DNA of 64,000 nucleotides from Antedon mediterranea (taxonomy: Eukaryota; Animalia; Echinodermata): positions 4,955,812 to 5,019,811 of the forward strand of contig NC_092675.1 in the NCBI RefSeq assembly GCF_964355755.1, in the 5' to 3' direction. A program made the position numbers and the translations under genes. The notes beneath the pieces were generated by a model. The model saw nothing but the letters and a program-made list of their open reading frames with translations, was not told the DNA's origin and made no database searches. Shown one piece after another: positions 5,779 to 32,900 of the stretch (the stretch's first letter is position 1; the number at the start of each line of letters is the position of its first letter).

Positions 5779-5961
5779 TTTATCACATAAATATTCAGTA
5801 AATATACAGCAATATTAATTAATAATTTAATTATTTTGAAATCCAGTAGGCCTATTATTTGTTACCGAAATAATTATCATCATAAATAAATATAAGTATT
5901 TGTAGTATCGCATATAATTTGAATTTTTTTTTTCAGCCAATGTGAAAAGACTTTATTCAAG

Positions 5962-8900
5962 ATGAAAATTGTCAGTCTTTTACCCAGTCTGCTGTTGGTA
6001 TTCTTTTGTAATGTTTTGAGTACTGATAAATTGGCAGCGGCAATGGAGGTTGCCACACTTTCTAGTAGTTGTTGGTTAGTTATTATAACTTGTTAATGTA
6101 ACAGTATTAGTTAGTATCACCAAAAATACACATTGAGCCTGAATAGACGAGTCTAACTTTTGAGGAAATTTCCGTTCTATGTATTTGCTGAAAGTGTACT
6201 AAAATTGGCCGGTAACGAAAGTATGATTTTCTTAGATTGCTTCTAGGCCTATATCTTATTGTTTTGTAAACTTTGCCTTTAATATATCTAATCATAAAAC
6301 ATAACCATATTGTATATTATTAGATTGATAATAAAATACACAACAATGTAATTTCAAAATTGCCGTAATCTTAAAACATAAAACAAAATGTTCAATGAAT
6401 GCAAAATACAAAAGTATGATCGATTCATTGCGAATAATTTTTCTTTAAAACTTTGTTTGACTTTAAAGGGAAGAAAATTCAGATCGTATCGAGAATGTGG
6501 ATAAGGCGAATGCATGCTACGGGAATCAAAATACAGGTAAATAAACAAGATACCTCTTCTTTTTTTAAAAATCTAAACAATAATAGCATAATCAATTTAT
6601 TCAGCACAGCAAATAATTATTTATTTTTAGATGAACTGTTGTGCTTTATGTTCCAAAACGATACGGATAAATGTAGAAATGGTTGGAAAGAACCAGTGAT
6701 AAGCAACATGAACAACTTTAACTATGTCGTCGAAGCAGCCAAATACCTTCTTACACGCAACTCGACGTTTACAGTTCGGATGGAATTGGAAACGAGATTA
6801 CAGCGGTTTATGAACTCATTTACTTCGGAGTGTGTTTCCAGAGAAGTTTCCAAGAACGTGTCAAAGAAGACTATTTTATGTGTTACCTTTGAAATTGATC
6901 AAGACGGTTATAAGATAAGAATTTTCAGAATGGGTAAAAAAGTTTCTTGTCAAAGACAATCTGACGATTATCTTCTGTGCCTCGCCGATGTCATTCAACC
7001 GACTTCAACGAGAACTGTTTATGGTAACGTATGTCTTTTTATGTTCTAAAAAAATCAGTTTAAAAGGAAATTAATGAATGTTAACGAAACATTGTGTCAA
7101 TATACAGTTGTCAAAATTAACTTAAAACTCGAAAAATAAAACTGTAAAAAAATAAATCAATTTTAGCAAGGCCTAATGGAAAATGGAATACTATTAATCA
7201 CATTAATAATGGTTCCATTGATTGATACAAATCTCAATAGTTTTAGTCTGTGCAATAATAATGTTATCGTTTAAAAATCGTTTACAATTTAAAACAGACA
7301 TTACTACTAGTGGTACAACAAGTCTCTACAGTACCGGTAGTAGTCTACCAACTAGCTCTCTTCCTCTGTCTACAGAAGTTACCACCAGCGGTTCAACAAA
7401 TACCAACAGGTTCTACACCAGAAGTCTACCAACTAGCTCTCTTCCTCTGTCTACAAAAGTTTCCACCAGCGGTTCAACAAATACCAACAGTTTATACACA
7501 AGTAGTCTATCAACTAGCTCTCTTACTCTATCTACAGAAGTTACCACCAGCGGTCCAACACATACCAACAGGTTCTACACCAGAAGTCTACCAACTAGCT
7601 CTCTTCCTCTGTCTACAAAAGTTTCCACCAGCGGTTCAACAAATACCAACAGTTTATACACAAGTAGTCTACCAACTAGCTTTCTTCCTCTATCTACAGA
7701 AGTTACCACCAGCGGTCCAACACATACCAACAGGTTATACACAAGTAGTCTACCAACTAGTTCTCTTCCTCTGTTTACAGAAGTTTCCACCAGCGGTTCA
7801 ACAAATACCAACAGGTTCTACACCAGTAGTCTACAAACTAGCTCTCTTCCTCTGTCTACAAAAGTTACAACCAGTGGTTCAACAAATATCAACAGGTTCT
7901 ACACAAATAGTCTAACAACTAGCTCTCTTCCTCTGTCTACAGAAGTTACAACCAGTGGTTCAACAAATATCAACAGTTTATACACAAATAGTCTAACAAC
8001 TAGCTCTCTTCCTCTGTCTACAGACGTTACTACCATTGGTTTAAAACATCCCAACAAGTTTTATACTAGTGATGTACCAACTAGTTATCTTCGTCTATCT
8101 ACTGATTATACCATGGAGATAAAGAAGGAGTCGACTAATGCAAATGTAGTTGCCGAAATAGATAGTTGTTGGTAAGTATTGTTATACTTAATTTATTAAA
8201 TGTTTCAAAACCACCGGAACAAATTATTTATTATAAAATAACGTTTTAGATTGTGACTCTTAATTAATTTAATAGTCATATTGAAAAGCTACAGTAATAC
8301 TACATTTATAATTTAAGTTTTCAAATTACAAACATTCTATTGTGTTTTCTATTATTATTTCAGGACACAACTTTCACCAAATGTCGAACGTGTTGGAAGG
8401 AATGATCTATGCTATATTAGCGATAATTTAGGTAAACCGGTTCGCTATTACATTTAAAAAAAATTGTGTTTGCTTTTTTTAAACAAAATAATCCGATATG
8501 GACAATCTTTTTCACAAAAATTCATTTCATTCACAATTCATTAAAAACTAGAATATAATTTACTGTTGATATCAATATTTAGATAAACAAAGATGCTACA
8601 AATTTGAGGATAACTTTCAAGAATGCGGAGAAGAATGGAAAAAAACAATAATTCATAACAAACAAGAGTTTGACTACATTATTACTAAAGCTAAATATCA
8701 TCTGACACCAAACTCACGATTTACAATTAAGATGGAATTAGACATGAGGGCTGAACAGTTTATCAATAAATTTACATCCGATTGTGTGAATAAAGCGATT
8801 CATTCAGACGTAATGATGAAGAAAAACAGATGTGCCACTTTTGAGATTTACGAAGATGGGTACCACATGGAGATTTATACAGTTTCTAAGAATAAGCCGT

Positions 8901-11192
8901 GCACAAGTACTAAGGATGATAAAGTAGCCTGTTTCACATCCGTCAAGCCACAGGAATTAACAACAAAAGGTAAAACTTAATTAGGCTAATTAATCAGAAA
9001 ACGAATCTCCTCATTCATGACATTCTCAGATGTAGAGTTAATTTACGGATATGGTTGGTTTGATTCAGGATAAAGCAAAGCTCTGTGTACACTCTCAAAC
9101 TCAATCTGAATGTGATGTGCTTATATATGGACATGATGATGTCATATAACTACCATATTTGGGCATATCACTATAATGTTTGGGCACAACACACTTTTTT
9201 GTCAAACTAGTTTGATAGTGTAGACAGAGCTTTAGACATGTTACGTTACGATGTGGGAGGAGAGGACTTATATCCCGATGAAAGCGGAAATGGTAAGTTC
9301 TACAGAGGTTGAACCTCTTGCGGAAGTCATTGATAGAAAAGTTTCCATCATTACCTATCTTTAAAAAAAATTTTTTTTTTAAATGTTTTTAATTTTTTCC
9401 ACCAGCATTCACTTACACCACCGATTCATCCGATATCCAAGCGTCGACAGATACGTTCTCTGTTTCTCTAATAGTGATGGTAATCGCTGTGTCTGTATTG
9501 GCTGTTATAGTATTGTCGCTTGGTTGTTTCTGCTACGGAAAATTCAAAGAGGTTAGAATAATTGTGATTGTTTGTGTATATGTAGCGCCACCAGTAGGTG
9601 TTTTGCTGCTCAGGTATAGTTATGACGCGCCATGTATGCGAAATGGTTTTCGCCGAATGTTATAAAAATGTCCACTTGGAACACAGACTAGCATTGAAGA
9701 ACAGACCTAAAAATGTGATTTAATTGTTGTGACATTTATTTATAGACGAAAATATAAGCTAATTATATAACATTCATAAATCAAATAGGAAAGCTTTGCA
9801 ATAGGTTATAAAATTTATATCTACATTATCAATCATTCTGCATTTAACTCTGATCTGATTTTCAACTTAGGAACTTATTATTATTATTATTTTTACTTTA
9901 TTTAGAGAAAGACTCATCAAACTGCACCAGCAATACCTGCTCACGGAAAAGGCTTTAGTAAGTACTTATCAAATAATAATATAATATTTTTTTCAAACAA
10001 CCAAACCAACACAGTTTTCATTCTATACTCATACAATTTCTGTCTTCGATAGAAATAATATTTTCAGATCATCAAATGATGTCATAGTAAATAAGAAGGA
10101 TAGCATTCACGATTTGTATTGATCTTGACGTCATTTGTTGACTAGATTTGTGAAATATTTTGATTGATAAAGAAAATTGATTCTTATTTTTAGAATGAAA
10201 ACTTTTATAATTTAGGCCTATTTTATTTTAGTTTAGAAAAAAAAATCCAACTATTTATCTGTTTATCGTCATCGTACCACATACTTAAGCATTTTAATTA
10301 GCATCCATTATTTGTACAATTGTGGAATGGGAACAATTGGATTCAAATGTTTTCTTCTTTTACAGATGAAGGTGTTGTTATTCCGATGCAAAGTGGCATT
10401 GCCAACTCAACATATGAATATCCATATGAACCGGAGCCCTTATATGCTGCTATCAACGATAACGGGCTATATACAGATCTTCTTCGATCACGGTCCGAAA
10501 GTGCATTGCATTTTGAAGGTGGTCAATTTCTTCCACAAACGCGATCTCTTCAACGATTGGTGCCCCAGAGAGTGGCAGAAAATAAATGGAGTACGTTACC
10601 ATATCAAACAAAAATACAGTCTGAAGTCGGTGCCAATGCTTCAATAAAGATGAAGTATTTAACGTCTTCTCAGTCGGGTTTTAATAATACTGATGATTTG
10701 GTACGTAAGTTCCACTCGTCACAGGATACACATAGACAAACACAGGATAGAGTACATTACCGAAGTCAAGATGGTAGTATTAACTTCAGTCATGACGAGA
10801 AAGTTAACCATGTAAACGAGACGAACCACTTAGATCAGGATGGTTACATAAAATCGAACTTTAATTCTGGTCATACGAATAATGATGATCTGTATCTCAC
10901 TCCGATAGCTACCAGTGACGATTCATCAACGCAAATAGAGAATTGCAGCGATATCGTAAATAGAGCAATATTTTCAGAATCGACAAATTTAAACCCCGAT
11001 GACGAGGAAGAATTACCCACTTATACAACGTTAAATCCTACTGATATCAATACATATACAGCTTTAGAACAAGATAGCCAAAGCCAAACTCCATCTACGT
11101 ATACCGATTTAACAAATACAGTTAAAGTAATAAACAAAACAAATCTGGAATCGACTTACATATCACTGGAACCTACGCCTAATGATGACTAA
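5962..11192 (+). CDS. Receptor A: type I membrane protein with two divergent C-type-lectin-like modules, a mucin stalk, TM and a Tyr-motif-rich tail (~975 aa)
   Basis: Hand-spliced GT-AG exons 5962-6074, 6469-6536, 6631-7023, 7298-8171, 8364-8431, 8583-8969, 9406-9551, 9906-9957, 10366-11192 (2928 nt, in frame). Signal peptide MKIVSLLPSLLLVFFCNVLS. TM SLIVMVIAVSVLAVIVLSLGCFCY. Tail motifs YEYP, YAAI, YTDL, YTTL, YTAL, YTDL, YISL. AATAAA at ~11316 and ~11395. A possible upstream UTR exon has a donor at 4841. Confidence 0.85.
7342..8100 (+). repeat. Coding 81-bp (27-aa) Ser/Thr-rich tandem repeat, ~9 copies (mucin stalk of receptor A)
   Basis: Unit SLPTSSLPLSTEVTTSGSTNTNRFYTR. The first copies alternate RFYTR/SLYTS, giving a 162-bp higher-order dimer. 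Confidence 0.95.
9077..9233. mobile_element. PIF/Harbinger-like MITE, family copy 1
   Basis: TIR AAGCTCTGT(C/G)TACACT...AGTGTAGACAGAGCTT. Same family at 12118 and 57563. Confidence 0.7.
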
Positions 11193-11931
11193 ATTTCTAT
11201 GGAAAATGAGGAAAGATACACCATTTTGAATTAGAAGCCAGTGACAATGAAGATTACATGTATCACTAACGATAATAATAATTATTGGATTGTTAATGAT
11301 GACATCTTTGCATTGATTAAATAATTACGACCTTTTATAGTATTTAATTCTATTTAATAAATCATTTTGCAGTTATATGACTTTTATAGCTTTTAATAAA
11401 CATAAACTGGAACTTGTGGTATTATGAAATTTATTTCTTTTAGCCAAAATGTACATGTTTCAGTGTTTTCCCATCAAGATCGGAATGCAAGCTCAACTAT
11501 CAACTCATAACATACTTTGTGTAATGAAATTGGTGTAATGAAAACTGACTATAATGTAGTGCAGAACACATAGTAGTAAAAGTAAAATAGTTAAAGATTG
11601 TACGATTTCCTTTTCACAACAACCAAACAAATAGTAATCAATCAATCAACGGAAATGTTGTAATTCTGGTAAAATATCACAAATGATAAATCTGGAAAAT
11701 TGTATAGACATTTCCTCCATGGTTTCATCTCCACATGATTAGTACCTTTTTTCCATGACGCTTCAGATTTCGGATATTACACACACTATACAGAATCATT
11801 CACCAGTATAGGTAATATCAATCAAACATTACGTCATTTCCGTTTCTAATTCGTATTCTGAAAGTCTTTAAACCACGTAATGCGGTTGGTTTTATAACTG
11901 TAGGCCTAAAAGACATGTTTGGTAGCAGAAG

Positions 11932-14900
11932 ATGGACTACTCTCGTTTCAGGCTTGCAGCCATGTCAGCAACAGGTCGGTACGATTCGGTGAAATTGTTG
12001 ACGCTTGTGATTATATGCCTGAGCATTGTTTCAAGATGTAATTGTGGTCTGCAGACAGTCCATGTTACCAGACGATGTTGGTAAGTGTCTTGAATGTAAC
12101 AGAGGCAATGTGATCTTAAGCTCTGTCTACACTATCAAACTAGTTTGATAAAAATTGTGTGCCCAAATATGGAAGTGATATGCACAAACATGGTAGTGAT
12201 ATGACATGACCATGTCCATATATGGGCACATCACATTTTTTTGTCACAACATCAAGTTTATAGTGTAGACAAGGCTTTAGGGAATATGGAAATATACATT
12301 GTTTGTCAATTGAATTTTGTCTATAGTATGTTTGATTAAACACTCAAATTATGTCAATATTTTCTTCTCATACCTAATATGCCTATAATACTGCATGGCT
12401 ATATCAAGAATGAATCTCGCAATTAACGCATGTTATCATTTAGAAAATAGAATATTGTACCTTAAGCTGAATCTGGAGATGCATAGACCCACCTCGAGAT
12501 TGCACTGTTCATTTTGACCCAACTTTTCTCAATTTAATGTTTTGTCTCAAATACCTATACTGTAGTACATATCTTCTTCAAATGCCATTATGTTTTACTG
12601 TGCATTCTGTTAATTGTCGAATGTTCTGATACCATTATTATTTTAATAAATCACCTTCACCAGTGTAATACAGTACAAGGATTAAAAACTGCCAGCAAGT
12701 TCTACTTGAATTGTGTTTACGGTCATAGATTCTTAGGACCGGAAACGTTTTGTGACCTATCCCTATATCTTTCCTGAATAACTTATGCACATCGTACAAA
12801 GATTTGTCAATAGTATTACTATTCTACCATATTTTAAGAAAATTATATGTAGATAATTACTCTGAAGTAAATAAAAATACTATCTATTATCCGGGAATTA
12901 ATGCAATCAATCACCCGGTTGGCTTTTCACAGATAACAATATCTAAGGAAATCCTTACAAGTCATTTTGCATTATGTGTTTGTTTTCAAGGACGAAGTAA
13001 TGATCTTAATAACATAATGTAGGAGATAAACTCTAAATTCATAATCACAAACAAGTTCCTGGTATATTTAATATTTTCTTTCCAAACACCTAATTTATGA
13101 ACAATGAACATGGATTAACTTTTGACAAATATTGTTTTCTTTAATTGAATCGTTCATATAAATTTAAATTGTAATATTTAGGCTACTGTCATGTTATAAT
13201 TATTTCGTACTGAAATAAAATTCGATTCTTTAAACATAAATAATTTGTTTTCTGTTTATACAGGTCCGATGTACAAAATCCAGTGACAAACCTTAATGGA
13301 CAGAATACAACATGTTTTTCCAAAAACACAAACGGTAAACTATTCCTATTACACGCTTTGTGTGGTATAATTAGCATCATCATTATCTTGTGATTAATTA
13401 ATAATTACTTAATGATTAATTAAATGTACTTCAACTATACCGTAGTTTATTATACGACTAACACTCTATCGAATATCATTTAATTTAATGATTACAAATA
13501 ATATTAGTCATACCGAACTATTAGGCCTACCAATAATATCCGCCTGACCTTAACGAAAAAACCGGTGGTATGAATGTTGAATATGTGCGACATGACAGGG
13601 GCGGCGGTATTCATTGAATAATTTCGATTTCTATTTGTGTTACGGTAATACTTTCAATTTCACGAGTCAACTACAATTTCCTACACTGTTACGAACACCG
13701 CCCCAACTGGATACTGTTTCGACAAGCTAAATTGTCTATACTTATTTCATTATTTTTTTCAGAGGCAATTTGTTATAAAATAAAAAATTATACCATTCAA
13801 GAATGTGAACCACCATGGAAACTAGTGGCATTCAAAGATCCTATTGAGATAGATCATCTTGCAATGACGTTGTTTAATGGAACTGATTTAAACATCGGTT
13901 TAAACATTGTTACTTCTGAAAAAGTGTTTAGAAACTTTAACTTACTTACTGAAAATAACGATTGTACGGCTTTTAAACCGTTCAATAATGCAATCAGTGT
14001 CAATTTGTGTGCATTTGTTATAGCGCGGACAAATACCGATTACTACGAGGTACACTTTCATAACACGTCTAAAGGCTGCAGTGAGCATGTTAGCACTTAT
14101 TATTATGCGTGTTCAAAAACGGTCAGAATAGGTAAGTTTTAATATTGTTTTAACTACCTCGATAAATTACTATTGTCGGTTAGGAACTACAGCAAATTTA
14201 ATATTAGAAGGTTTTTTTTTAATTGAGCGATTCTGCCTTAAAATAATGTATTCGTAGATTTATAAAAGAAGATATTTTATGCTGAATATGGTCAGGGTAA
14301 GGCTTGATCGTGATCTTTAAACGATCGGAAAATCGAAATGGAAATTTACCAACGTAAATTTTCTTAAGTTATTAGATGTTATACACAAAAATTAACATCA
14401 AACTCTCAACAAAGATGAAATATTAAAGATAAACTTCTCTTGTAATAAATGTAGTCAACGCATCCCAAGAGTCTGCGTCATCGCCGACAAATGAGACCAT
14501 CATCTCGCCGACATCAATGGTTACTCCAACAGCAGGAATTGATATGCTGATCATCATTGTCATTATAGCTGCTGGGGCAATCAATGTACTAATCATTCTT
14601 GTAATTACAACGTGTTGCTGTTACTATAAACAAAAGGTTTGTCTTACTTTTGTCTGAATTTATTTGTATATTATAACTATATTTCACGATTAGACACTTG
14701 AAATAAAAGTAAGTAGGCTATACATGGCCCTGTATATAGTGATAATGCACTTTCGCGCTTACACAATCTAAAAACATTTTCGCTGCGCGGCGGTGATGTT
14801 GAGTGACCGTGAAACCTTTTAGGTGCGAAAGCGCCGATCGTGTCCCGGTTTTCGCCAGCCCTGGTATGATAATTCAGTAGCCATTATCTGATTTGCTATC

Positions 14901-17380
14901 AATTTAGATGTTTTTTCTAAAAAAGAATACATTCAACTTACAACTTATACGGGAATGTTCCGATAGCTGCTGTTCTGGTGAAACTTGCTTCCTTCCGAAG
15001 CAAATGTTCATAAAACCTGTAGAATAGCAAGCGATGAGACCACAGCTGATATTTGAGTATTCAAATAGAAATGAACCTCAACGGGAACGTTGAAATAATT
15101 GACATAACAATGGTTGTTACGTAATGGAGCTCAATAGAGAAAGAACGTTCGCTAATGAAAAGAAAATTCTAGATGAAGGTGTTCTCATCTATTTCTCAGT
15201 ATTTTATTATTTTTTCTGTTTAGATTAGCTATACGGAAAAGTCACTGGTAGGCTATAGTTTTAGGTCCACATGAACACACTGCACACGAATTTCCGACTA
15301 CTATACCAATTAAAACCCCACAGTATCAGAGGAATGAGCAATCCATGGATATGTAGAAAGACTAAAGAAAACTTTATGATATAATATTAGTATAGGCCTA
15401 TAAACACTTTCTAGGAAAAAACCACCATGCTAAATCGCAAACAAATCTTATCTTTAAAGAAACAGCCGTCAACCATTCGTTGCAAGCAAGATCTATTTTT
15501 GCCAAAATGTAAAAACAGATTTATTATTCTATATCACGACGTATGCGTGCAATACACCATGGAAACCATATATAAAAGACCAATTTACACAGAAGACCAG
15601 TCGGTAATGGTAAGCGGAAAACCGCGTAGCTGGTACCCTGTCACTATCCTTATACAAACAATCAGTCACGTCGTAGTTGTTTCTGAATAATAAGAAAACT
15701 AGGCCAACTACGGCACTCGTATCAATTTAATTATTTTCCCGAAATCGAATCTGTTTTTATTGTAAGCGCATTTCGGCTAAATCGTTGTTGTAAGTGACGT
15801 CACATCCAAACAATTACATTTTAAATGGGGCTAAACAGATAAAGAAACAAAATGCCGGCGTACATTTAATATTGAATAATCAGTGATAGGTTATCTCCCC
15901 CACTTTAATTTGTATCTCCAGGTATTGTGTCTGACATGAGATACAGGGAATGTTCATGAATTTATATAAGGAAGTACATTTGGTGTTCTGGTATTTGATT
16001 TCTTTGATTACTACGCATGCGTTGCCTGAAGCGATTTCTCCGGTCCAGCTTACAGGGAATTGAAAATCAAGGATTCGTTAAACCAGGGAGTTGTAAATTA
16101 TTTTAAAACTCCCTGGTTAAACGTTGAAGATACTATTATATTTCGTAATCACAATGACAGTTGTGTAGTCGTCTGACTGGTTGATGATTTCCTAAAATGT
16201 CAATAATAAACATGTTTATTTCCTTTTCTTTCAGTATCACAAAAAGTCTTTATTGATCAGTGGTTCAATGAAATATACAAGTAAGAAAATACTTCCGTTG
16301 CTCATATTCATAGTGTGTATTGTATTTCAAATGCACATAAACAACTTTGAAAGACCAGGCATATGTCGAAATTATTTATTCCAACATTTCCAAAGCTTTT
16401 TATAACTATTCAAATTACACAAATGTATTTATCAAAAAGGGAAATGTTAACGTTGTATCGAAATAACGTGAATTATATCCTTTTTGAAGGTTTCGAGGTC
16501 GTGCATCAGCCGACAACTCACACTTGACCTTGTATTTATTGTTTTGTTTTCCAATGTATTTCCAAATTATATTTTAAAATGGAGTCGACAGTAACGTTAT
16601 TATTGTTTTTTTTTTGCAGATCGTTCGCTTCCAACACCAGCACCAGAAGCCACTTACAAACCCAGTCTGAGTGAATGCGGCGAATACGCTTACCCTACAC
16701 TGCCAACTTTCCTAAGTAGGCCTAGTAATAAACAACCCGATCAAGATGAGAGCTCTGCATACATGTTATCAAATGCACCTCTAGAAAGAATGGACGACGA
16801 TTGCGAATACATGGGTCTGGGGGAGACTGTCAATGAACACCGTCAGAAATCGATCTTAACAGTAAAACGACGTAAACATCAACAAAGACAGAATCGTAAT
16901 GTATCTTCCTATTTAGAAGTTGAAGACGTATCTGAAACCAATAATTTGAATCCCCAAGGTCCCATAGCACACACATATGCCGATCTAGACAGCACCACAC
17001 AGTGTAATAGCCATGAAGTTGGCGCAACAACACATCATACCACAAATCAGAAACAGGAGAGTAATTGTTACATGGATCTTGATGACGCTGCTCGCACACC
17101 GAACAGGCATATGGATGTATCTGTATACAAAGATCTCCATGGTCATATCATTCCATCAGGCTGCAACAGAAAAGGATGTCAAGAATGTAAATCGGCTCGT
17201 ATGAATCAGACAACAAAGCATTCATCATTTAACCATGATAAATCTACGGAATCGCCATTATACCAAGAGGTCGAACAACCAGTCTTTTATATGGCTGTCG
17301 AAGGGAAGAGTAAAGCCTCTTGTGAAATTGGCCATATGGCGAAGTGCTTTGACGACAATACGTATTCGTTTTTAACATAA
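11932..17380 (+). CDS. Receptor B: type I membrane protein with one divergent C-type-lectin-like module, TM and a Tyr-motif-rich tail (~525 aa)
   Basis: Exons 11932-12080, 13264-13334, 13763-14131, 14455-14636, 16235-16280, 16620-17380 (1578 nt, in frame). Hydrophobic leader KLLTLVIICLSIVSRCNC. Domain CYKI..QECEPPWKLVAFKDPIEIDHL..LNIGL..C..C..C..YAC. TM MLIIIVIIAAGAINVLIILVITTCCCYY. Tail motifs YAYP, YMGL, SSYLEV, YADL, YMDL, SVYKDL, YQEV, YMAV, YSFL. Confidence 0.85.
12118..12278. mobile_element. PIF/Harbinger-like MITE, family copy 2
   Basis: AAGCTCTGTCTACACTATCAAACT...ATAGTGTAGACAAGGCTT. The interior is the reverse complement of the 9077 copy. Confidence 0.7.
16084..16115. mobile_element. 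32-bp hairpin with 7-bp TSD (P-element-like footprint or mini-element)
   Basis: GTTAAAC|CAGGGAGTTGTAAATTATTTTAAAACTCCCTG|GTTAAAC. Confidence 0.6.
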
Positions 17381-19859: not shown

Positions 19860-20131
19860 TCATGCAGTACACACCAATGGTCATGCAGTACACACCAATG
19901 GTCATGCAGTACACACCAATGGTCATGCAGTACACACCAATGGTCATGCAGTACACACCAATCGTCATGCAGTACACACCAATCGTCATGCAGTACATCA
20001 TGCAGTACACACCAATCGTCATGCAGTACACACCAATGGTCATGCAGTACACACCAATGGTCATGCAGTACACACCAATCGTCATGCAGTACACACCAAT
20101 CGTCATGCAGTACACACCAATCGTCATGCAG
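19860..20131. repeat. 21-bp minisatellite, ~13 copies
   Basis: Unit TCATGCAGTACACACCAAT(G/C)G with one truncated copy near 19990. Confidence 0.95.
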
Positions 20132-20964
20132 TCAAATATTGCGTAATTTATACCGCCATCTATCGACAAAATTGAATATCACGTGACTTTTATTAGACGG
20201 CTGTAAAACTAAGGCTATATACAAACTTTATACTACGTTCTAAAAGGGGATTCACCACTTGTATATTACCAACAAACTATGCGTCAACAGTGTCCATTGC
20301 CCCGTCGTTGCTTCCCAATTTGTGTGTTACGCTACGGACTCGTCGCACGTCAACATAGGGAAAAACTGTAGATGTAAAATATAATCAGTGTTGTAGATTC
20401 TACACAACTGAGAACATTTCACATATAAATCAGTGTATAAAAAGTTTCAGTATCGGGAATAATCTCGTGACCCATACATTTTTTTCGCGACCCATAAATT
20501 GGGTCACGACACATAGGTTGCGGAACGGCGCTACGACAAGTCGCATAGGCACTTCGTGTTTATCTTGCGCCGTATAATACACATATTATACGAAAAAACC
20601 TCATCTTCAGACTGCAACAGACGGACTTACTAACTATTTTACCGTGACTCGTGATTGTTTTCATGATAGCCCAACTATCAATATGCAGGTTTAATAATTC
20701 AGGAGAAACGCAAGGAAGTAAATTCCGGAAGTACTTCCAATACCATGTATATAGTGATACGCCGGCTGTGACGACGATCGCTTTATGAACTTGATTTCGT
20801 TTACTGATCTCGCCAACCAATCGCATCTATTGAGAGATTCGTGGTATCATCCCGGACATTTTTAGATCAGTTCTACATGAATTATAATACATTTGGCTAT
20901 TTACACGGAAATTACACTGTCTAACAAGCGTGTGCTAAAATCGCAAGTGTAATAACAGGATAAA

Positions 20965-23900
20965 ATGCTACTTGTGTTAATTTTCCACGCGTTAGTTGCG
21001 TCTAAAACGGTTGTTTCACAAACACCTAACGTGACTACTACGGGGACTACTACGACAAACATAATAACAGAAAGCGTCAAGATTGTCAATAGCTGCAATG
21101 TCGGCACGTAAGTTATTTAAATACAATTATATTTTAGGCATATTATAAAGCGATGGCACCAGATTACTGATAGCCATAGATTATAAATCAACAAACACGT
21201 TCCCGCCTGTTTACACTATCACTTTCATCACTTTGTTTAGTATGTGCTAGGCGAATCGTTACATGGCCGACAGAGGATATGCTGTTATTTATTAAATACA
21301 TAGGACTAGAATTATTTAAAATATGATTGAAAAAAAATATCTGAAACGAGATGATATGAGTGTTATCGTGACTCTTTGTATTTTATAAAGCAAAATCAAT
21401 TTAATACTAATAATGATAGGCCTGATAAATACCGACATTTAATATTGGAATGAAGTGCTGAACTTATGATTTATCTTTTGTATTGTTTTTGCCAAATTGT
21501 AAGGGAAGGAACAAGTCGAACCCAACCCTTAATGCGTCCACCTATTCATTAAATAAATGTTTCGTCGATCAAGCCTAGCCATATGGTGAAATAGATTTAT
21601 GATAGAAATAAATGCTGGTATTGATATATTACTTTAAACAAATAATAAAAGCCATTCCTGTTTCCTGATGACGATTATGTATAGACTGTTACGAGTCTTT
21701 AATAGTATTAATAAGCATGATAACAAGGTATTCAGCCATATTGATATAGATGTAATATGAACAATGACATAATGGAGAGATTATTAATTTATATGATGAG
21801 AGTAGTGTATCCAGTAGTGGGATACTGGATACTAAACACCACCTCTACCACTACCTGGATGCTAAACACCACCTATACCACTACCTGGATGCTAAATACC
21901 ACCTCTACCATCACCTGGATACTAAACGCCACCTCTACCCCTACCTAGATGCTAAATACCACGTATACCACTACATGGATGCTAAATACCATCTCTACCC
22001 CTAACTGGATGCTAAATACCACCTCTACCACTACCTGGATACTAAACACCACATATACCACTACCTGGATACTAAATACCACCTCTGTCACCACCACCAC
22101 CTGGATGCTAAACACCACCTCTACCACTACCTGGATGCTAAATACCACCTCTATCACCACCTGGATACTAAACGCCACCTCTACCCCTACCTGGATGCTA
22201 AATACCACCTCTACCCCTACCTGGATGCTAAATACCACCTCTACCACCACCTGGATGCTAAACACCACCTCTACCCTTACCTGGATGCTAAATACCACCT
22301 CTACCACCACCTGGATACTAAACACCACCTCTACCACTACCTGGATGCTAAACACCACCTCTACCACTACCTGGATGCTAAATACCACCTCTGCCACCAC
22401 CACCACCACCACCTGGATGCTAAACACCACCTCTACTACTACCACCTGGATGCAAAGCACCACCTCTACCACTACCTGGATGCTAAGCACCACCTCTATC
22501 ACTATATCTGGATGCAAGCACCACCTCTACCACTACCTGGATGCTAAACACACTCTACCACTACCATGATGCTAAACACCACCTCTACCACCACCTGGAT
22601 GCTAAACACCACCCCTACCACTACCTGAATGCTAAACACTACTACTACCTGGATGCTAAACACCACTCCTACCACTACTTGCCCTAATAAAATCAGCATA
22701 TACTAGAAATATATGTTGCCATATTTCTAACACTTGTTCGTTGGCTGCGTAACAACAGAACTACAAAATGCTAATGCGAAATGTTAAAATGAATCAAATT
22801 AGATAATCTACAAAGTAAGAGAGGAATGTTTAATAGTAGCAATGAAAATGTATGTTGATTATCAGTTATAGAAATTAAAAATACTAAGTCATACCGTAAG
22901 ACAGAAATTTGTTTTGAAAACTGGTATTAGACCAGGAGCCCAGAGGGGTCAACCTAGCTGGAAAGTTAACCAATTTCTATGCATGTGGCAATTATCTACG
23001 TACATATCAATGTATGGAAATGACAGTCTGGCGCGTTTCTTTTGGTGGGTGTGGCTAGGAGGGACACTGTAAAGGGTAAAAAAAATGAGCTAGATCAGCT
23101 GAAAAGTTAACCCCATGAAATATTTTGCAAATTGTTTGACATAGAATGAAATATAAGGAATGGCTATTGCCAGACGATTTTAGTGGTGGGGGGTGCCTGC
23201 CAGACCCCCATTTCTGGAGGGCCAAAAATGAGCTAGATCAGCTTAAAAGTTAACCCTCTAAAACTGGTGGGAAAATGTTCAATAAACTCATAACTATCAT
23301 GAATGACCATTGCCAGACATTTTCAGTGGTGGATTGTACCCGCCAGACCCCGTCAAACACCCCACCCACAAAAAATTGAGCTAGATCAGCTGAAAAGTTA
23401 ACCCCATGAAATATTTTGCAAATTGTTTGACATAGAGTGAAATATAATGAATGGACATTGCCAGACGATTTTAGTGGTGGGGGGTGCCTGCCAGACCCCC
23501 ATTTCTGGAGGGCCAAAAATGAACTAGATCAGCTTAAAAGTTAACCCTCTAAAACTGGTGGGAAAATGTTCAATGTACTCATAACTATTATGAATGACCA
23601 TTGCCAGACATTTTCAGTGGTGGATTGTGCCCGCCAGATCCCGTCAAACACCCTCACTCCCAAAAATGAGCTAGATCAGCTGAAAAGCTAACCTTTTAAA
23701 ACATGCTGTAGAATGTTCAGCATGATCCCTAGTATAATAAATGACCATTGCCAGACATTTTAAGTGGTGGGTTGTGTCAACCAGGCCCCCTCAAACACCC
23801 AACCCCCAAAAATGACCCAGATTAGGCCAAGGGTTAACCACTGTAAAACTGGTGGGAAAATGTGTAGTATACTGTCAAGGATATGAATTGTCATTACCAG

Positions 23901-26900: not shown

Positions 26901-29900
26901 ACACATTGACAGTGAAACGGAAGAAACAGAGATTGAAGAATCAAGTGATTCTTATGGCGATGCATAGAGTGAAGAGGAATATATGGATTAATTTAAATAA
27001 TTTGTGCAGAAAAGTCATAGCTTATTAAATAAGACTGTTTTTTGTTGTAACTAATGAAAACTACTGTAGATAGAATAAGGTACTATATAAAGTATCATAT
27101 GCTAAAATGTCGGGTGTTTGATATTTGATGTAGTTCTCATTTTAGTCATTCATGCTGTTTTTTAGTGTACTTAATTGCTCCATATATTTTGTTTTATAAG
27201 TTTAGGTTTTGAGTTGATCTAGTTCATGTTTTTTTGGGGGGGGGGGGGGGGGGGGGTGTTTAATTGGTGTCTGGCGGACACAACCCACCACTTTAAATGT
27301 CTAGCAATGGTCATTTATTATACTAGGGATCATGCTGAACATTTTACAGCATGTTTTAAAAGGTTAGCTTTTCAGCTGATCTAGCTCATTTTTGGGAGTG
27401 GGGGTGTTTGACGGGTCTGGCGGGCACAATACACCACTGAAAATGTCTGGCAATGGTCATTCATAATAGTTATGAGTACATTGAACATTCTCCCACCAGT
27501 TTTAGAGGGTTAACTTTTAAGCTGATCTAGCTCATTTTTGGCCCTCCAGAAATGGGGGTCTGGCAGGCACCCCCACCACTAAAATCGTCTGGCAATGTCC
27601 ATTCATTTTATTTCACTCTATGTCAAACAATTTGCAAAATATTTCACGGGGTTAACTTTTCAGCTGATCTAGCTCAATTTTTTGGGGGTGGGGTGTTTGA
27701 CGGGCTCTGGCGGGCACAATCCACCACTGAAAATGTCTGGCAATGGTCATTCATGATAGTTATGAGTTTATTGAAGATTTTCCCACCAGTTTCAGAGGGT
27801 TAACTTTTAAGCTGATCTAGCTCATTTTTGGCCCCCCCCCCAGAAATGGGGGTCTGGCAGGTACCCCCCACCACTAAAATCGTCTGGCGATATTCATTCA
27901 TTATATTTCACTCTATGTCAAACAATTTGCAAAATATTTCATGGGGTTAACTTTTCAGCTGATCTAGCTCAATTTTTGGGGGGTTGGGTGTTTGACGGGG
28001 TCTGGCGGGCACAATCCACCACTGAAAATGTCTGGCAATGGTCATTCATGATAATTATGAGTTTATTGAACATTTTCCCACCAGTTTCAGAGGGTTAACT
28101 TTTAAGCTGATCTAGCTCATTTTTGACCCCCCAGAAATAGGGGTCTGGCAGGCACCCCCCACCACTAAAATCGTCTGGCAATGGCCATTCCTTATATTTC
28201 ACTCTATGTCAAACAATTTGCAAAATATTTCATGGGGTTAATTTTTCAGCTGATCTAGCTCATTTTTTTTACCCTTTACAATGTCCCTCCTAGCCACACC
28301 CACCAAAAGAAACGCGCCAGACTGTCATTTCCAAACATTGATATGTACGTAGATAATTGCCACATGCATAGAAATTGGTTAACTTTCCAGCTAGGTTGAC
28401 CCCTCTGGGCTCCTGCTCTATATGTCATAAAAACAGAATAAGAAACTAAATATCGTTAGTTATTGAGTTTGTTATTGAACCTAAAAAACAATGTTAAAAT
28501 TATAGTTTCGTTACATTTTTCAGAACAAATATAAGTTCGGAAATCATCGATCTAGGGGACGAAACTTGTACCCTACACTCGGATGGTAAGTTTAAGTTGA
28601 AGCAATAAGGTAAAGTTAGACATCGCATAATTTATTACATCATTATATCCAACAAAATAGAGTTTAGAATGGTCAATTAATTTAATACCTTATTTCTAAC
28701 ACTGAAACAAAAATGTATTATTTTCTTTAAAAATTAATAAAAAAGAATTCGAATTGTATATTTTGTAAACATAAAACAACTGGCACTACTACTATTATCG
28801 TAACAGCATGGAGGTATTTTATACCTCCATGGTAACAGCGACAAATGCAGAATTAGTATTAACTATATAGGCCTACTGTAGACTAATAGTTTCAGCATAC
28901 GTTTTTAATGGAATCGGGTTAAATTTTGATATCTGTCTGTTCCCAGAGGCCATGTACAAATCTTTTGAGAGTCGTCGTGTAGCGTAACAAGTTTATACAA
29001 TTTCACCAGTAATTAGTCAAACATCCGGATACAATTACTATAGATCAATGGCAAGAAGGAGATAATAGACCTGTTAATGAGTGTGTTTGATGCATACCTG
29101 GATAGATAGGCCTATTATATTTCTGTTATACGGTAAACAGCCTACCCCTACCGTAGTGTGATTTACATTCTACTTAGGCCTAATTACGTTAGGAACGTTT
29201 GGTGCCAATTACCGGTTATGAAGGAAAACGTTATAGCAGCAACTATTGCCTTTGGCCTGTCTGTGTGCCATAGTATCAAATTTATAAGACGATTTATAAT
29301 ATAATTGACTTGACTTATGGCGAGTGGAGTCCTTGAACCACCATGGCCCTCCAAAGTTTCCTATCTGTCATAGCTGTTTCCACTTCTGCTCTATCCAAGC
29401 CAGTATCCAATGATCATCTTTCATAGACAATTTTCTAGTGACGTAATGATAATAGTTTTGAACATGCTATGCTCCTGTAAACAACAGACGGTGGTTTTTA
29501 CGTTAATTATCGCGTTTTAATGTGATTAATTTCATTTATTTTTGTCTCCATTAAAATACAATATAAAAAATCGTGGACAAACAACAAGAAAACATCACAC
29601 AAAACCAGGCAGAGACAGGATTCCTAAAAAAGCGAACCTAATCACTATCTAGTAGGTCTCCTATTGCACTGATTGTATAAAAAACATTTAGATTAAAATT
29701 TGTATAAACATTAGAAATGCATATAAATATTATATCAAAATAAATTAAAATATATTGCATTCATTGTCATGATGTGGAAAACAATGTTTGTAATATTGCG
29801 TGTCAGGAGTAACAAAACCTAACCCTAACAACTTAAATTCTGTAAAATAAGATAATACTTTTCTTTATTATAAAATTATGCACCAGTGAATTATGTACCT

Positions 29901-32900
29901 TTTTTTTTCTGAAAAATTAAGTTTTGGTAATAAATCTCTTTTTAATGCATTTCCCGATGATCACAAACTGAGTAATACATTCTTTAAATTTATGCTGAAA
30001 AAAGGAATCATAAAATACATTTAAGTCAACGTGAACGAGAAAAGAATTTTATATAGTTTAAAATAAACTGGCTGGCACTCCTTTTATTCAACGAAATAAT
30101 ACTTCAGGAAAATAGATTAATTTCTGCTTGCCACTTCCGTTTTTGGTTTTAATATTGTGCACACATCCCGGTTGTTAACAGGCGTTCTATTGTGCGTATT
30201 TACATTTTATGAAAAATCTTTCGCATTGATAACGTCAATCATGCCAGTATGTTTCATTGAAGCAACGATTGACTTCAAATTACTGTACTAGAAAATTGTC
30301 TATGAAAGATGATCACTGTTGAATAATTATTCCATCACCTGTTTAATGGCTTTTAATGCCCATAATAATGATCATATTACACTGTGTTCAAATAGACGAT
30401 TAGACTGGACTGGTGTTATGTTTATATTTTGTAACAATGCATTTCTTCTATAAAACTGTGAACTGCAATACGCAGAAACACTAATACTTGGTCTATCAGG
30501 TTTAGCTAAACTCAAATCCAACAATTGGTTACCACCAATCGTTTTTGCACGACTGACGTCCCATATTTTGCTTAACCTAAAAAATTATAATCAATCCGAC
30601 CTGGTACAGATTATTTTGCGTGCTTACAATGTCTAAACGTTGAACTGCGTTACGTGAAAATACGTATGCTTGATCTATCAGGTTTTGCTACACAAATCCA
30701 ACTACCGATCCTTGTAATGTCCTCTTGTTAAAAACTCATTTTTTTTGGATGTTACAAGATGGCGTAAAAGATACTTTTCATTCAACCTAATTTTCACGTA
30801 GGCCTATATGGAATGCATTGCCCACCGAAGAAAACTTTTTTTCTCCAAGACTCTTGATAATTTTCTATATAAAACAAATATGTATGGCCAACAGCCATTA
30901 AGTCGCGTGCTACAATGCATAGTGATACCGGACCGACAGACAGACAGACCGACAGACCGACACACAGACCGACCGACATAGTGAACTATAGATAAAAAGG
31001 CATAATTTTGACGAATTTTGGAACTTTTTCATCAAAAACGTGCGCAAATTATCCAATTCGACGTGCTCGTATGACGTAATTTTAAGTCGAAATTGTTTAA
31101 AAGTTGGTAAAATTATTAGAAAAGGCTACAAAAACCTAAATCACGAGAAAAAAGTATGTATTTAACGCTACGTGCGCACCGCGCGCGTAAAATTTGCGCG
31201 CGTATGGGAATTTTTGACATGCTCAAAATGACAAAAAACGCGTAGAAAGTTGATTAAAAATTAATTTTGCGCATTTTAAAATTTTAAATGCGCGTGCGCG
31301 CGTAACTGTGTAAAACACATTTTTTTTCAATTTAAAATGTTATTTGGTTTTTGACCTATGTTAAATAAGAGAAAATCGTTAAATCGCGCGTAAATCACGT
31401 TGCGCAACTCTAACGTCATTCACAATAGCACAATTTCACGTAAATGCCCACATGTTGACATCAAAACAGTTCAAAAAGTACAGAAAAGCAATAAAACGCA
31501 TAGTGATACCGGACCGACAGACAGACCGACAGACCGACAGACAGACCGACAGACCGATTGACATAGTGAACTATAGAGTCGCTTCCACGCGACTAAAAAG
31601 AATTATTCGACTCATGTGTTGTTGACTTAGGCTATGCCCATGACATTTTAGTAGTTCACATGTGGAAACAATATCACAATGTTTTAACCCAAGTTGAGTA
31701 CTTTCGAATGTAGACATTATAATGTCGTACCGGGGAAGAATTTCATAACTTGACGTTAATGGCATTGTGGCTAACTTATAACAAATGTTTTTACTTTCAT
31801 CAATAATATTTTTCTCTTTATATATAGACACATGCTTTTATTTTGGGAGAAACAGTGTACCATACAAACATGCTTCTCAAGAATGCTTGGAAACAGGAGG
31901 AGGGGAGTTAGCATCCATAACTAATCCACGTATATTACATTTGCTACTTGAAATGGTTAATAAACAAAACTCTAGTGATGATCCAAATTGCTTTTGGATT
32001 AATATTTCTCATTCAACATTGATTTCATTGAACGAAACTTTTTCAATTTATTTTCAATCTTATAACAATTGTGGCTCAGTAGTTGGCGAAAATGTTCAAC
32101 CACAACATACTTGTTACTTTGCAATGGCAAAACATCTAAATACCAAGTTAATATTGCGACAGATGAAGAAACAGGAAAAATGTACAACAGTCAACATGAA
32201 GGTGCTTTGTCAGGGTAGTAAGTATAAACAATTAATAAAAATGCATTACGGATTAGAACAATTTAATTATTATAATTCTAGTTGAATTTGACAGTGAGAC
32301 TTTAGGAATAATGCATCCACATATTCATAAGACAAAAATATCATAATGTAATAGTGTATACCTTTTATAAAATGTATACACGATATGTTTTGGTTATTTC
32401 AGTTCCTGATGATAGGAGTAATTGTTTTAACCAAACTGTGTTTAATGATGTTATGATAGTTTTTGTTGTCTCTCTATTTTCTCGGTATTGTCTTTCTTCT
32501 TGTCATCTAACTTCTCATTCAGTTATCGGATCACGATACAATAACGATGGTTATACAACATTTTATATGTTATTACTTTTATTATGACAGGCCCAAGAGG
32601 TCTAGCTGATACAAAATTGATCAACTCGAATGGTCCAATCACTACCATCATAATCGCTACATCCGTTGGAATGTTAGCGTCACTACTTATTGTTGGTTTA
32701 ATAATTAGGAGCCTACGCAAATCTCGAATTAATTCACATAACAGGTAAGGTTTATAATATGTACACATTCAATATGTTCCTCTAAGGCTAAAATGGGTAA
32801 AAGAATATATATGAATGCGCATTTAAACACTTGGATCGTGCTCTTTTTTGCAATAAACCATTGCTGTTCCACCCACGACCAGTTCTGATTATCTGTCTTG

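What the first reader, a model, noticed from the sequence alone, without database searches (positions are those of the whole stretch)
6469..14131. Reduced C-type-lectin-like domain in receptors A and B, likely invisible to standard domain searches
Seen: receptor C has a recognisable CTLD (CFYF-x5-YKHASQEC-x6-LASITN...FWIN...C...C...VLCQ). The equivalent exons of A1, A2 and B keep the Cys skeleton and helix-2 pattern (VISNMNNFNYV, IIHNKQEFDYII, VAFKDPIEIDHL) and a WIGL-position strand (FTVRM, FTIKM, LNIGL). However, the stretch between the first two Cys is only ~9-10 residues instead of ~16, so most of helix 1 appears deleted, and a new C-x3-W-K motif appears. None of the four domains shows EPN/QPD plus WND. 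Established: those motifs bind Ca2+ and sugar. Inference: these domains bind protein or other non-sugar ligands, and A/B represent a new CTLD variant with an N-terminal disulfide extension encoded by the mini-exon.
Basis: partly seen in the sequence, partly recalled or inferred. Interest (0 to 1): 0.7.

Follow-up and report, generated by a model that had tools for sequence, protein, structure and literature searches.

The report
Lectin-like receptors missing one core helix
A feather star carries three neighbouring cell-surface receptor genes whose outer domains are predicted to be heavily rebuilt C-type lectin domains that two of the genes have shortened so that one of the fold's two core helices is likely almost gone, which would be an undescribed version of a major recognition fold that standard profile searches miss.

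Summary
The window is crinoid DNA (matching RefSeq proteins of Antedon mediterranea, all 'uncharacterized') with three tandem type-I receptor genes. RNA contigs confirm gene A's mini-exon and domain-exon splices. A1, A2 and B share an 8-cysteine skeleton with only 10-11 residues between the two cysteines that are 17 apart in C; none has EPN/QPD plus WND; none scores in Pfam. The only relatives found are two Anneissia japonica proteins. An AlphaFold2 model of the Anneissia A-type module (pLDDT 76.5) matches C-type-lectin-fold chains in 50 of 50 listed rows, but weakly (Z 4.4-5.9), with helix alpha1 cut to one turn. Corrections: the mini-exon cysteine is likely the ordinary long-form beta0 cysteine; the new element is an extra strand and cysteine from the preceding exon, likely bonded to a long-loop cysteine; C likely shares it and itself falls below Pfam's cut-off; K of C-x3-W-K is not conserved; missing EPN/WND does not exclude sugar binding. 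Tails are enriched in YxxL/I motifs, so these are likely SH2-signalling recognition receptors. Verdict: new, lineage-restricted variant of the CTLD fold; ligand untested.

The parts
5962..6074 (+). Gene A coding exon 1: signal peptide plus the extension strand ending in the extra Cys of module A1
   Evidence: RNA contig 5937-6073 spliced to 6469; open model
6469..6536 (+). A1 mini-exon (68 nt, phase 2-1): linker and beta0 Cys
   Evidence: both joints GT-AG in X1
6631..7023 (+). A1 domain exon: CTLD-derived core with 10-residue Cys gap
7298..8171 (+). Mucin-like stalk exon (47% Ser+Thr, 81-bp unit x9.4); its 3' end encodes the extension strand and extra Cys of module A2
8364..8431 (+). A2 mini-exon (68 nt, phase 2-1)
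   Evidence: both joints in X1
8583..8969 (+). A2 domain exon
   Evidence: 48-49% identical to Anneissia modules
9406..9551 (+). Gene A transmembrane exon
   Evidence: loose end at 8969 continues here; matches RefSeq P0003
9906..9957 (+). Gene A short cytoplasmic exon
   Evidence: matches P0003
10366..11192 (+). Gene A cytoplasmic tail exon: 6 Yxx[LI] motifs, one ITAM-spaced pair (x7) and one x5 pair conserved in Anneissia
11932..12080 (+). Gene B exon 1: signal peptide, extension strand and extra Cys
   Evidence: model equals RefSeq P0008 letter for letter
13264..13334 (+). B mini-exon (71 nt, phase 2-1)
13763..14131 (+). B domain exon, 11-residue Cys gap
   Evidence: RNA contig piece 13762-14128
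14455..14636 (+). B stalk and transmembrane exon
16235..16280 (+). B short cytoplasmic exon
16620..17380 (+). B tail exon, 6 Yxx[LI] motifs in the tail
20965..21107 (+). Gene C predicted exon 1 (signal peptide, first Cys); my prediction, not checked with RNA; RefSeq P0004 uses transposon sequence instead
28524..28585 (+). C mini-exon (62 nt, phase 2-1)
   Evidence: in RefSeq P0004; phases
31828..32217 (+). C domain exon: CTLD with full alpha1 spacing (17), weak Lectin_C match, one additional Cys
32591..32744 (+). C transmembrane exon
   Evidence: matches P0004
34095..34150 (+). C short cytoplasmic exon
   Evidence: matches P0004
34696..35324 (+). C tail exon with 3 Yxx[LI] motifs in the tail

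Best explanation
Genes A and B encode single-pass membrane receptors whose outer modules are predicted to be C-type-lectin-derived domains with helix alpha1 cut to one turn, and which likely recognise a ligand without calcium and likely signal by recruiting SH2-domain proteins to phosphorylated tail tyrosines. Shown by sequence or calls: exon structure and splicing of A, signal peptide, stalk, one transmembrane segment, 8-Cys skeleton, 6-7 residue shortening relative to C, loss of EPN/QPD/WND and WIGL, excess of Yxx[LI] motifs, no catalytic domain found in the tails. Predicted: CTLD topology (beta0, beta1, one-turn alpha1, full alpha2, beta2, long loop with a helix and a strand, beta3, beta4, beta5) plus an extra N-terminal strand. 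Inferred: three ordinary disulfides (C0-C0', C1-C4, C2-C3) and a fourth that clamps the extra strand to the long loop; this clamp and the invariant C-x3-W tryptophan would make up for the stability lost with alpha1; the rebuilt upper lobe would bind a protein or a glycan at a non-canonical site; clustering would lead to Src-family phosphorylation and Syk/SHP-type recruitment, as for hemITAM lectin receptors. C would be the less derived paralog that keeps alpha1.
For: Fold: A-type model pLDDT 76.5, pTM 0.74, built from 5 sequences with no recognised CTLD among them; 50 of 50 listed rows among 48,161 chains are CTLD-fold chains, Z 4.4-5.9, rmsd 3.3-5.4 A, 89-113 aligned (two bacterial rows, 8oks and 8q4e, are CTLD-like by recall, not by title); B model gives CTLDs at ranks 1-14 and 41 of 50 rows; the first 20 Foldseek rows shown for the A model are CTLDs; 27 of 30 ESM feature hits for B's ectodomain carry Lectin_C. 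Register: model 21-157 aligns with codakine 1-129, which puts the last model Cys (152) on codakine Cys124, the conserved C4 (PMC12842671 passage), if the last five residues are gap-free. alpha1: H46-49 only in the A model, three helical residues in the B model. Link to C: same intron phases 2-1-1 and 8 Cys in register; summed global score beaten by 7 of 1000 shuffles. Tails: Yxx[LI] 6 vs 1.7 expected (A, p 0.003), 6 vs 1.2 (B, 0 of 5000 shuffles), 3 vs 0.8 (C, p 0.04); tyrosine motifs in acidic context are kept between A and Anneissia P0001. Precedent: oyster CgCLec-HTM and CgCLec-TM1 signal through hemITAM and Syk (PMC13027682 passages).
Against: No structural match reaches Z 8 or Foldseek E 0.001, and the tool warns that Z under 8 may mean only a common arrangement; Foldseek rmsd is about 10 A. 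The good model is of the Anneissia ortholog, not of A1 or A2; only 1 of its 5 models exceeds pLDDT 70 (76.5, 63.9, 54.9, 47.3, 39.6); the B model is poor (47.6). Disulfide partners could not be read from the models. ESM features of the A2 exon alone gave no Lectin_C hit, and B's best hit shares 141 of 256 features, under the 170 typical of true family members. C's kinship is weak by local scores: 79 of 1000 shuffles reach its A/B-HMM score, 489 of 1000 its A-HMM score, hhalign probability 0.1; with Cys fixed, 31 of 1000. The ITAM-spaced x7 pair of A is absent from Anneissia P0001, whose tail shows no significant Yxx[LI] excess (p 0.09). No tissue expression, ligand or phosphorylation data.
Confidence: 0.6

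Rival explanations
1. The domain is a CTLD variant as predicted, but the proteins are adhesion, matrix-anchoring or endocytic receptors, and the tail tyrosines act as sorting (YxxPhi) or scaffold motifs rather than ITAM-like signals.
For: A 290-residue mucin stalk separates A1 and A2; YxxPhi is also the endocytic motif (recalled); the x7 pair is not conserved in Anneissia; no expression evidence ties the genes to immune cells.
Against: Tails of 236-294 residues with 9-14 tyrosines, many after acidic residues, exceed what sorting needs; several tyrosine motifs persist across two crinoid genera although the rest of the tail is about 34% identical.
Confidence: 0.22
2. These are highly polymorphic self/non-self (allorecognition) receptors whose ectodomains diversify within the species.
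For: Tandem cluster, fast divergence (A2 48-49%, B 35% identity to Anneissia), variable module number (2 in A, at least 3 in P0001 with an 88% identical pair), tyrosine-motif tails.
Against: RNA run X1 shows 0 differences from the window in the 916 nt of A's mini and domain exons (all 6 listed differences lie in the stalk exon) against 17 listed in the 827-nt tail exon (only 40 of 170 rows were shown). One RNA sample and linked sites, so weak; the DNA sample also shows 0 differences over 5813-7371, introns included, which may be haplotype sharing.
Confidence: 0.08
3. The A/B module is not CTLD-derived; it is another small disulfide-rich alpha/beta domain, and AlphaFold2 or the aligner only found a common arrangement. 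C is an unrelated CTLD neighbour.
For: No sequence-level match to Lectin_C or to any PDB chain; Z under 6; local A/B-to-C scores not significant; MAFFT placed C's first domain Cys against the mini-exon Cys in 2 of 4 alignments (versus 10, 70).
Against: Two independent models, two aligners and a language-model search all point to the same family, with no other fold in the 50 rows; cysteine order and intron phases agree with C.
Confidence: 0.1

Closest known systems
Canonical long-form C-type lectin-like domain (Pfam PF00059; e.g. codakine, tetranectin, langerin, CD302)
   Same: Predicted topology from beta0 to beta5, full alpha2, six cysteines in the order C0, C0', C1, C2, C3, C4
   Different: alpha1 one turn; no WIGL, EPN/QPD or WND; C2-C3 gap 23 (19 in Anneissia B) versus 13 in codakine; helix and strand in the long loop; extra N-terminal strand and fourth Cys pair; no Pfam score
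NKG2D and other group V, calcium-free CTLD receptors (dectin-1, CLEC-2)
   Same: No calcium site; NKG2D has lost a core helix and has four disulfides (PMC7618208 passage); dectin-1 and CLEC-2 signal through tail YxxL (PMC9630629 passage)
   Different: NKG2D loses alpha2, not alpha1; group V proteins are type II with short tails (recalled), these are type I with 236-294-residue tails
Link module / compact CTLDs
   Same: A CTLD reduced by deletion of one element (PMC9630629 passage)
   Different: Compact CTLDs lack the long loop; here about 32 residues lie between beta2 and beta3 and the deletion is in alpha1
Oyster CgCLec-HTM and CgCLec-TM1
   Same: Invertebrate transmembrane CTLD receptors with tail tyrosine motif that signal through Syk (PMC13027682 passages); CgCLec-HTM has a C-terminal TM segment
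   Different: They are recognised C-type lectins with a CRD; no sequence link to the crinoid proteins was found
Anneissia japonica XP_033100373 (P0001) and XP_033100374 (P0006), both 'uncharacterized'
   Same: Same 8-Cys module and short gap; adjacent locus numbers on a contig of the same length
   Different: P0001 has at least three A2-like modules and a shorter tail; P0006 is annotated without TM segment or tail

Membership tests
C-type lectin-like domain (canonical CTLD) | Double-loop fold with beta1/beta5 and beta2/beta3/beta4 sheets | tested here: met
   On predicted models only: 50 of 50 and 41 of 50 rows are CTLD-fold chains, Z 4.4-5.9 and up to 5.2
C-type lectin-like domain (canonical CTLD) | Two flanking helices, alpha1 and alpha2 | tested here: not met
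   alpha2 14 residues; alpha1 4 residues (A model) or 3 (B model); Cys gap 10-11 versus 17 in C. Hence filed as a derived variant, not a canonical member
C-type lectin-like domain (canonical CTLD) | Conserved C1-C4 and C2-C3 disulfides | tested here: inconclusive
   The four cysteines are in order in 7 of 7 modules and C4 falls on codakine Cys124; bond geometry could not be read from the models
C-type lectin-like domain (canonical CTLD) | WIGL core motif in beta2 | tested here: not met
   No WIG in any module; a beta strand sits at that position in both models; C keeps the Trp
Pfam Lectin_C (PF00059) | Score at or above 22.6 bits | tested here: not met
   A1, A2, B no match; C 19.1 bits as exon, 16.2 in P0004
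Ca2+-dependent C-type lectin (CRD) | EPN or QPD plus WND | tested here: not met
   Absent from 7 of 7 modules
Ca2+-dependent C-type lectin (CRD) | Calcium-dependent sugar binding | not testable with these tools
   Needs glycan array with and without EDTA
Long-form CTLD | N-terminal beta0 hairpin with C0-C0' cysteine pair | tested here: met
   Mini-exon Cys 8-11 residues before the first domain Cys, on strand E28-31 beside beta1; alignments to long-form chains start at model residues 19-26. Canonical spacing of about 11 is recalled
Link module / compact CTLD | Long loop region absent | tested here: not met
   Residues 86-117 lie between beta2 and beta3 in the A model
ITAM/hemITAM-bearing receptors | Tandem or single YxxL/I in the tail | tested here: met
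   A: six motifs with one x7 pair; B six; C three; above shuffles. The x7 pair is not in Anneissia P0001
ITAM/hemITAM-bearing receptors | Phosphorylation and Syk recruitment | not testable with these tools
   Needs cell assay

The most novel reading that the evidence does not exclude
A third structural class of CTLD, beside canonical and compact: alpha1 is deleted and replaced in function by a new tryptophan and an N-terminal strand from the upstream exon that is disulfide-clamped to a rebuilt long loop; the two states (C with alpha1, A/B without) survive side by side in one crinoid cluster, the three-exon module is duplicated as a unit, and the receptors signal through their own ITAM-like tails, implying a hidden pool of echinoderm recognition receptors that domain counts have missed.
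Probability: 0.4. Interest if true: 0.65.

Novelty: new variant of a known kind. Interest (0 to 1): 0.47.

Why it matters
CTLD variants without alpha2 (NKG2D) or without the long loop (Link modules) are described; ten full-text searches found none without alpha1 and no mention of these genes. If the model is right, it widens what the fold tolerates and gives a natural with/without pair (C versus A/B) to test how. It also shows that lectin-receptor inventories of echinoderms, built on profile matches, can miss whole families, and it offers candidate tyrosine-signalling receptors in a phylum where a recent review says such signalling data are lacking (PMC13027682 passage). Limits: two species, predicted structure, no ligand.

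Tried and rejected
No own genome is held, so copy number elsewhere in this genome is unknown. Homolog searches: profile over 1.84 billion representatives gave 7 hits, 5 real (3 from this locus, 2 Anneissia) and 2 spurious bacterial repeat proteins P0005 and P0007, dropped; word-index searches added nothing (longer: 2 of 2911 candidates, near: 0 of 207, C region: only itself of 65). These searches are weak for such divergent domains, so 'crinoid-restricted' is provisional. PDB sequence search: 0 hits for both profiles, only chance hits for C, best CTLD row CD23 at E 1.5. NCBIfam nothing. Viral structure library nothing, best E 0.07. ESM search with the A2 exon alone uninformative; ESM structure search of P0008 TM under 0.4 on a poor model. 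Link modules were not among the listed rows; this absence does not exclude a resemblance. The pdb_via second look and a homodimer prediction were not obtained, so oligomer state is open. A scan of metagenomes with the alignment could not start and an attempt to reach bacterial CTLDs as an outside profile found no locus, so no profile-profile test against canonical CTLDs was made. A weak A-like peptide in C's intron at 32318-32458 (E 1.9) has no DNA similarity to the domain exons: chance. The alternative register that makes the mini-exon Cys the beta1 Cys was rejected because C has its own mini-exon with the same phases. A 7-sequence tree had 0 starred branches and cannot order the duplications. 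No run is on record as RNA; X1 is judged RNA from its exon-only cover and GT-AG joints. Earlier findings: none. PMC514892 passages held nothing relevant.
Full report
Setting. The window is AT-rich animal DNA; no whole genome is held. A profile of the four domain exons, run over 1.84 billion representatives, returned 7 proteins. Three are this locus's own RefSeq models from the feather star Antedon mediterranea, two are from the crinoid Anneissia japonica, all named 'uncharacterized'; two are unrelated bacterial repeat proteins and were dropped. Further searches added nothing.

Gene anatomy. Three + strand genes lie in tandem before an M1 aminopeptidase gene. Gene A (5962-11192, nine coding exons) gives 975 residues without a stop, all introns GT-AG, and RefSeq's P0003 is only its last 420 residues. 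Contigs of run X1 cover exons only and show five GT-AG joints: into and out of both mini-exons and into the stalk exon; a loose end at 8969 continues in the transmembrane exon. X1 is not on record as RNA. B's six-exon model equals RefSeq P0008; an X1 contig piece is limited to its domain exon. C's model matches P0004 from the mini-exon on; its first exon is my prediction, as P0004 begins in a transposon inside that intron. Each extracellular module is spread over three exons with the same phases: the end of an upstream exon with one Cys, a 62-71 nt mini-exon with one Cys, and a domain exon with six (seven in C).

Observation check. EPN, QPD, WND and WIG are absent from 7 of 7 modules. Pfam finds nothing for A1, A2, B; C reaches 19.1 bits, under the 22.6 cut-off. 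NCBIfam and PDB sequence searches are blank. A and B are true homologs (0 of 1000 shuffles; global z 7-8). C's kinship is weaker: not significant by local HMM or hhalign, 7 of 1000 shuffles by summed global score, 31 of 1000 with cysteines fixed; it rests also on shared phases and eight cysteines in register.

Fold. Spliced window proteins could not be folded directly, so B (from P0008) and an Anneissia A-type module (51% to A2) were folded, each with five sequences and without C. B gave a poor model (pLDDT 47.6), yet ranks 1-14 and 41 of 50 rows of the wide structural search were CTLD-fold chains, best Z 5.2; Foldseek gave 6 CTLD rows of 48 shown, none significant. The A-type model is good (pLDDT 76.5, pTM 0.74; other four models 63.9 to 39.6): strand 3-11, low-confidence loop, beta0 28-31, beta1 36-43, helix 46-49, alpha2 61-74, beta2 80-85, helix 91-96, strand 104-108, beta3 118-125, beta4 128-135, beta5 149-157. 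All 50 listed rows of 48,161 chains are CTLD-fold, Z 4.4-5.9, rmsd 3.3-5.4 A, 89-113 residues (two bacterial rows are CTLD-like by recall). The first 20 Foldseek rows shown are CTLDs, 26 of 38 in all, none at E 0.001 or better. ESM features gave Lectin_C for 27 of 30 hits with B's ectodomain but nothing with the A2 exon alone. No match reaches Z 8, so the case rests on unanimity, not strength; low Z is expected if a helix is gone and the upper lobe is rebuilt. The codakine alignment (model 21-157 to chain 1-129) puts the last Cys on Cys124, the conserved C4.

What is new and what is not. The mini-exon Cys lies on beta0, 8-11 residues before the first domain Cys, within the part that superposes on long-form CTLDs: likely the ordinary C0-C0' bond. 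Residues 3-11 fall outside nearly all alignments (only 2 of 50 rows start before residue 18, at 12); they end in Cys11 and are encoded by the exon before the mini-exon. After assigning three ordinary bonds, Cys11 and the long-loop Cys103 remain, and I infer a fourth bond; geometry was not readable. C likely shares this pair. Specific to A/B are the alpha1 deletion and an invariant Trp four residues after C1 (6 of 6; the following Lys 3 of 6), which would fill space left by the helix (inference).

How it likely works. Signal peptide, one or two modules on a Ser/Thr-rich stalk (47% S+T in A), one transmembrane segment, and a 236-294-residue tail with no Pfam domain above cut-off. Yxx[LI] motifs exceed shuffles in A (6 vs 1.7, p 0.003), B (6 vs 1.2, 0 of 5000) and C (3 vs 0.8, p 0.04), but not significantly in Anneissia P0001 (3 vs 1.2, p 0.09). 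A has an ITAM-spaced pair (x7) that P0001 lacks and an x5 pair that it keeps; further acidic tyrosine motifs are shared. The most likely mechanism is calcium-independent recognition followed by tail phosphorylation and SH2 recruitment (0.6 for fold and mechanism together; about 0.9 for CTLD descent alone). The ligand class is open: dectin-1, CLEC-2 and clam SPL-1/2 bind glycans without site II (PMC7618208; PMC12842671). A hyperpolymorphic allorecognition role is disfavoured, weakly, by 0 differences in 916 nt of A's module exons against 17 listed in the tail exon in one run.

Comparison and literature. The fold is defined with two helices, two disulfides and WIGL (PMC7618208, PMC9630629; passages). 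NKG2D lacks alpha2 and compact CTLDs lack the long loop (same passages). Oyster CgCLec-HTM and -TM1 show hemITAM-Syk signalling by invertebrate lectin receptors (PMC13027682, passages). PMC514892 passages were not informative. Ten searches (listings and abstract starts only) showed no alpha1-less CTLD and no mention of these genes; subscription journals, including the main CTLD review by Zelensky and Gready (recalled, not seen), are not covered, and no supplements were read.

Verdict. Real, spliced, conserved in two crinoids; works like a calcium-free CTLD receptor; not a canonical CTLD or Pfam Lectin_C member; new variant of a known kind. Interest 0.47.

Noticed in passing
window 22928-28420: About 5.5 kb insertion in C's first intron with 585-nt inverted arms (97% complementary), 147/291-bp subterminal arrays and broken ORFs without Pfam or NCBIfam match: a degenerate DNA-transposon-like element. 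RefSeq P0004 wrongly starts inside it.
   Followed up: partly
window 5962-8731: The RefSeq protein found for gene A (P0003) omits the first 555 residues, that is module A1, the stalk and half of A2, although the splices are in RNA-type contigs.
   Followed up: yes
window ~9050-9236 and ~12116-12260: Two intronic copies of a very high-copy short element (depth thousands of times background in DNA runs), MITE-like.
   Followed up: no
window 6469-8969 versus 10366-11192: Module exons of A show no difference from run X1 while the tail exon shows 17 listed (10 silent, 7 replacement); the DNA run is also invariant over 5813-7371.
   Followed up: partly
window 13763-14131: RefSeq lists B isoforms with another N-terminus (P0002) and with most of the domain spliced out (P0009).
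   Followed up: no
window 31828-32217: C has a ninth, apparently unpaired cysteine just before the beta2 tryptophan, a candidate for an interchain bond.
   Followed up: no
window 38788 onward: Multi-exon M1 aminopeptidase gene (Peptidase_M1_N, E 4e-16) follows the cluster.
   Followed up: no
window 19860-20132 and 21825-22678: Tandem arrays of 21 bp and 30 bp units upstream of C and in its first intron.
   Followed up: no
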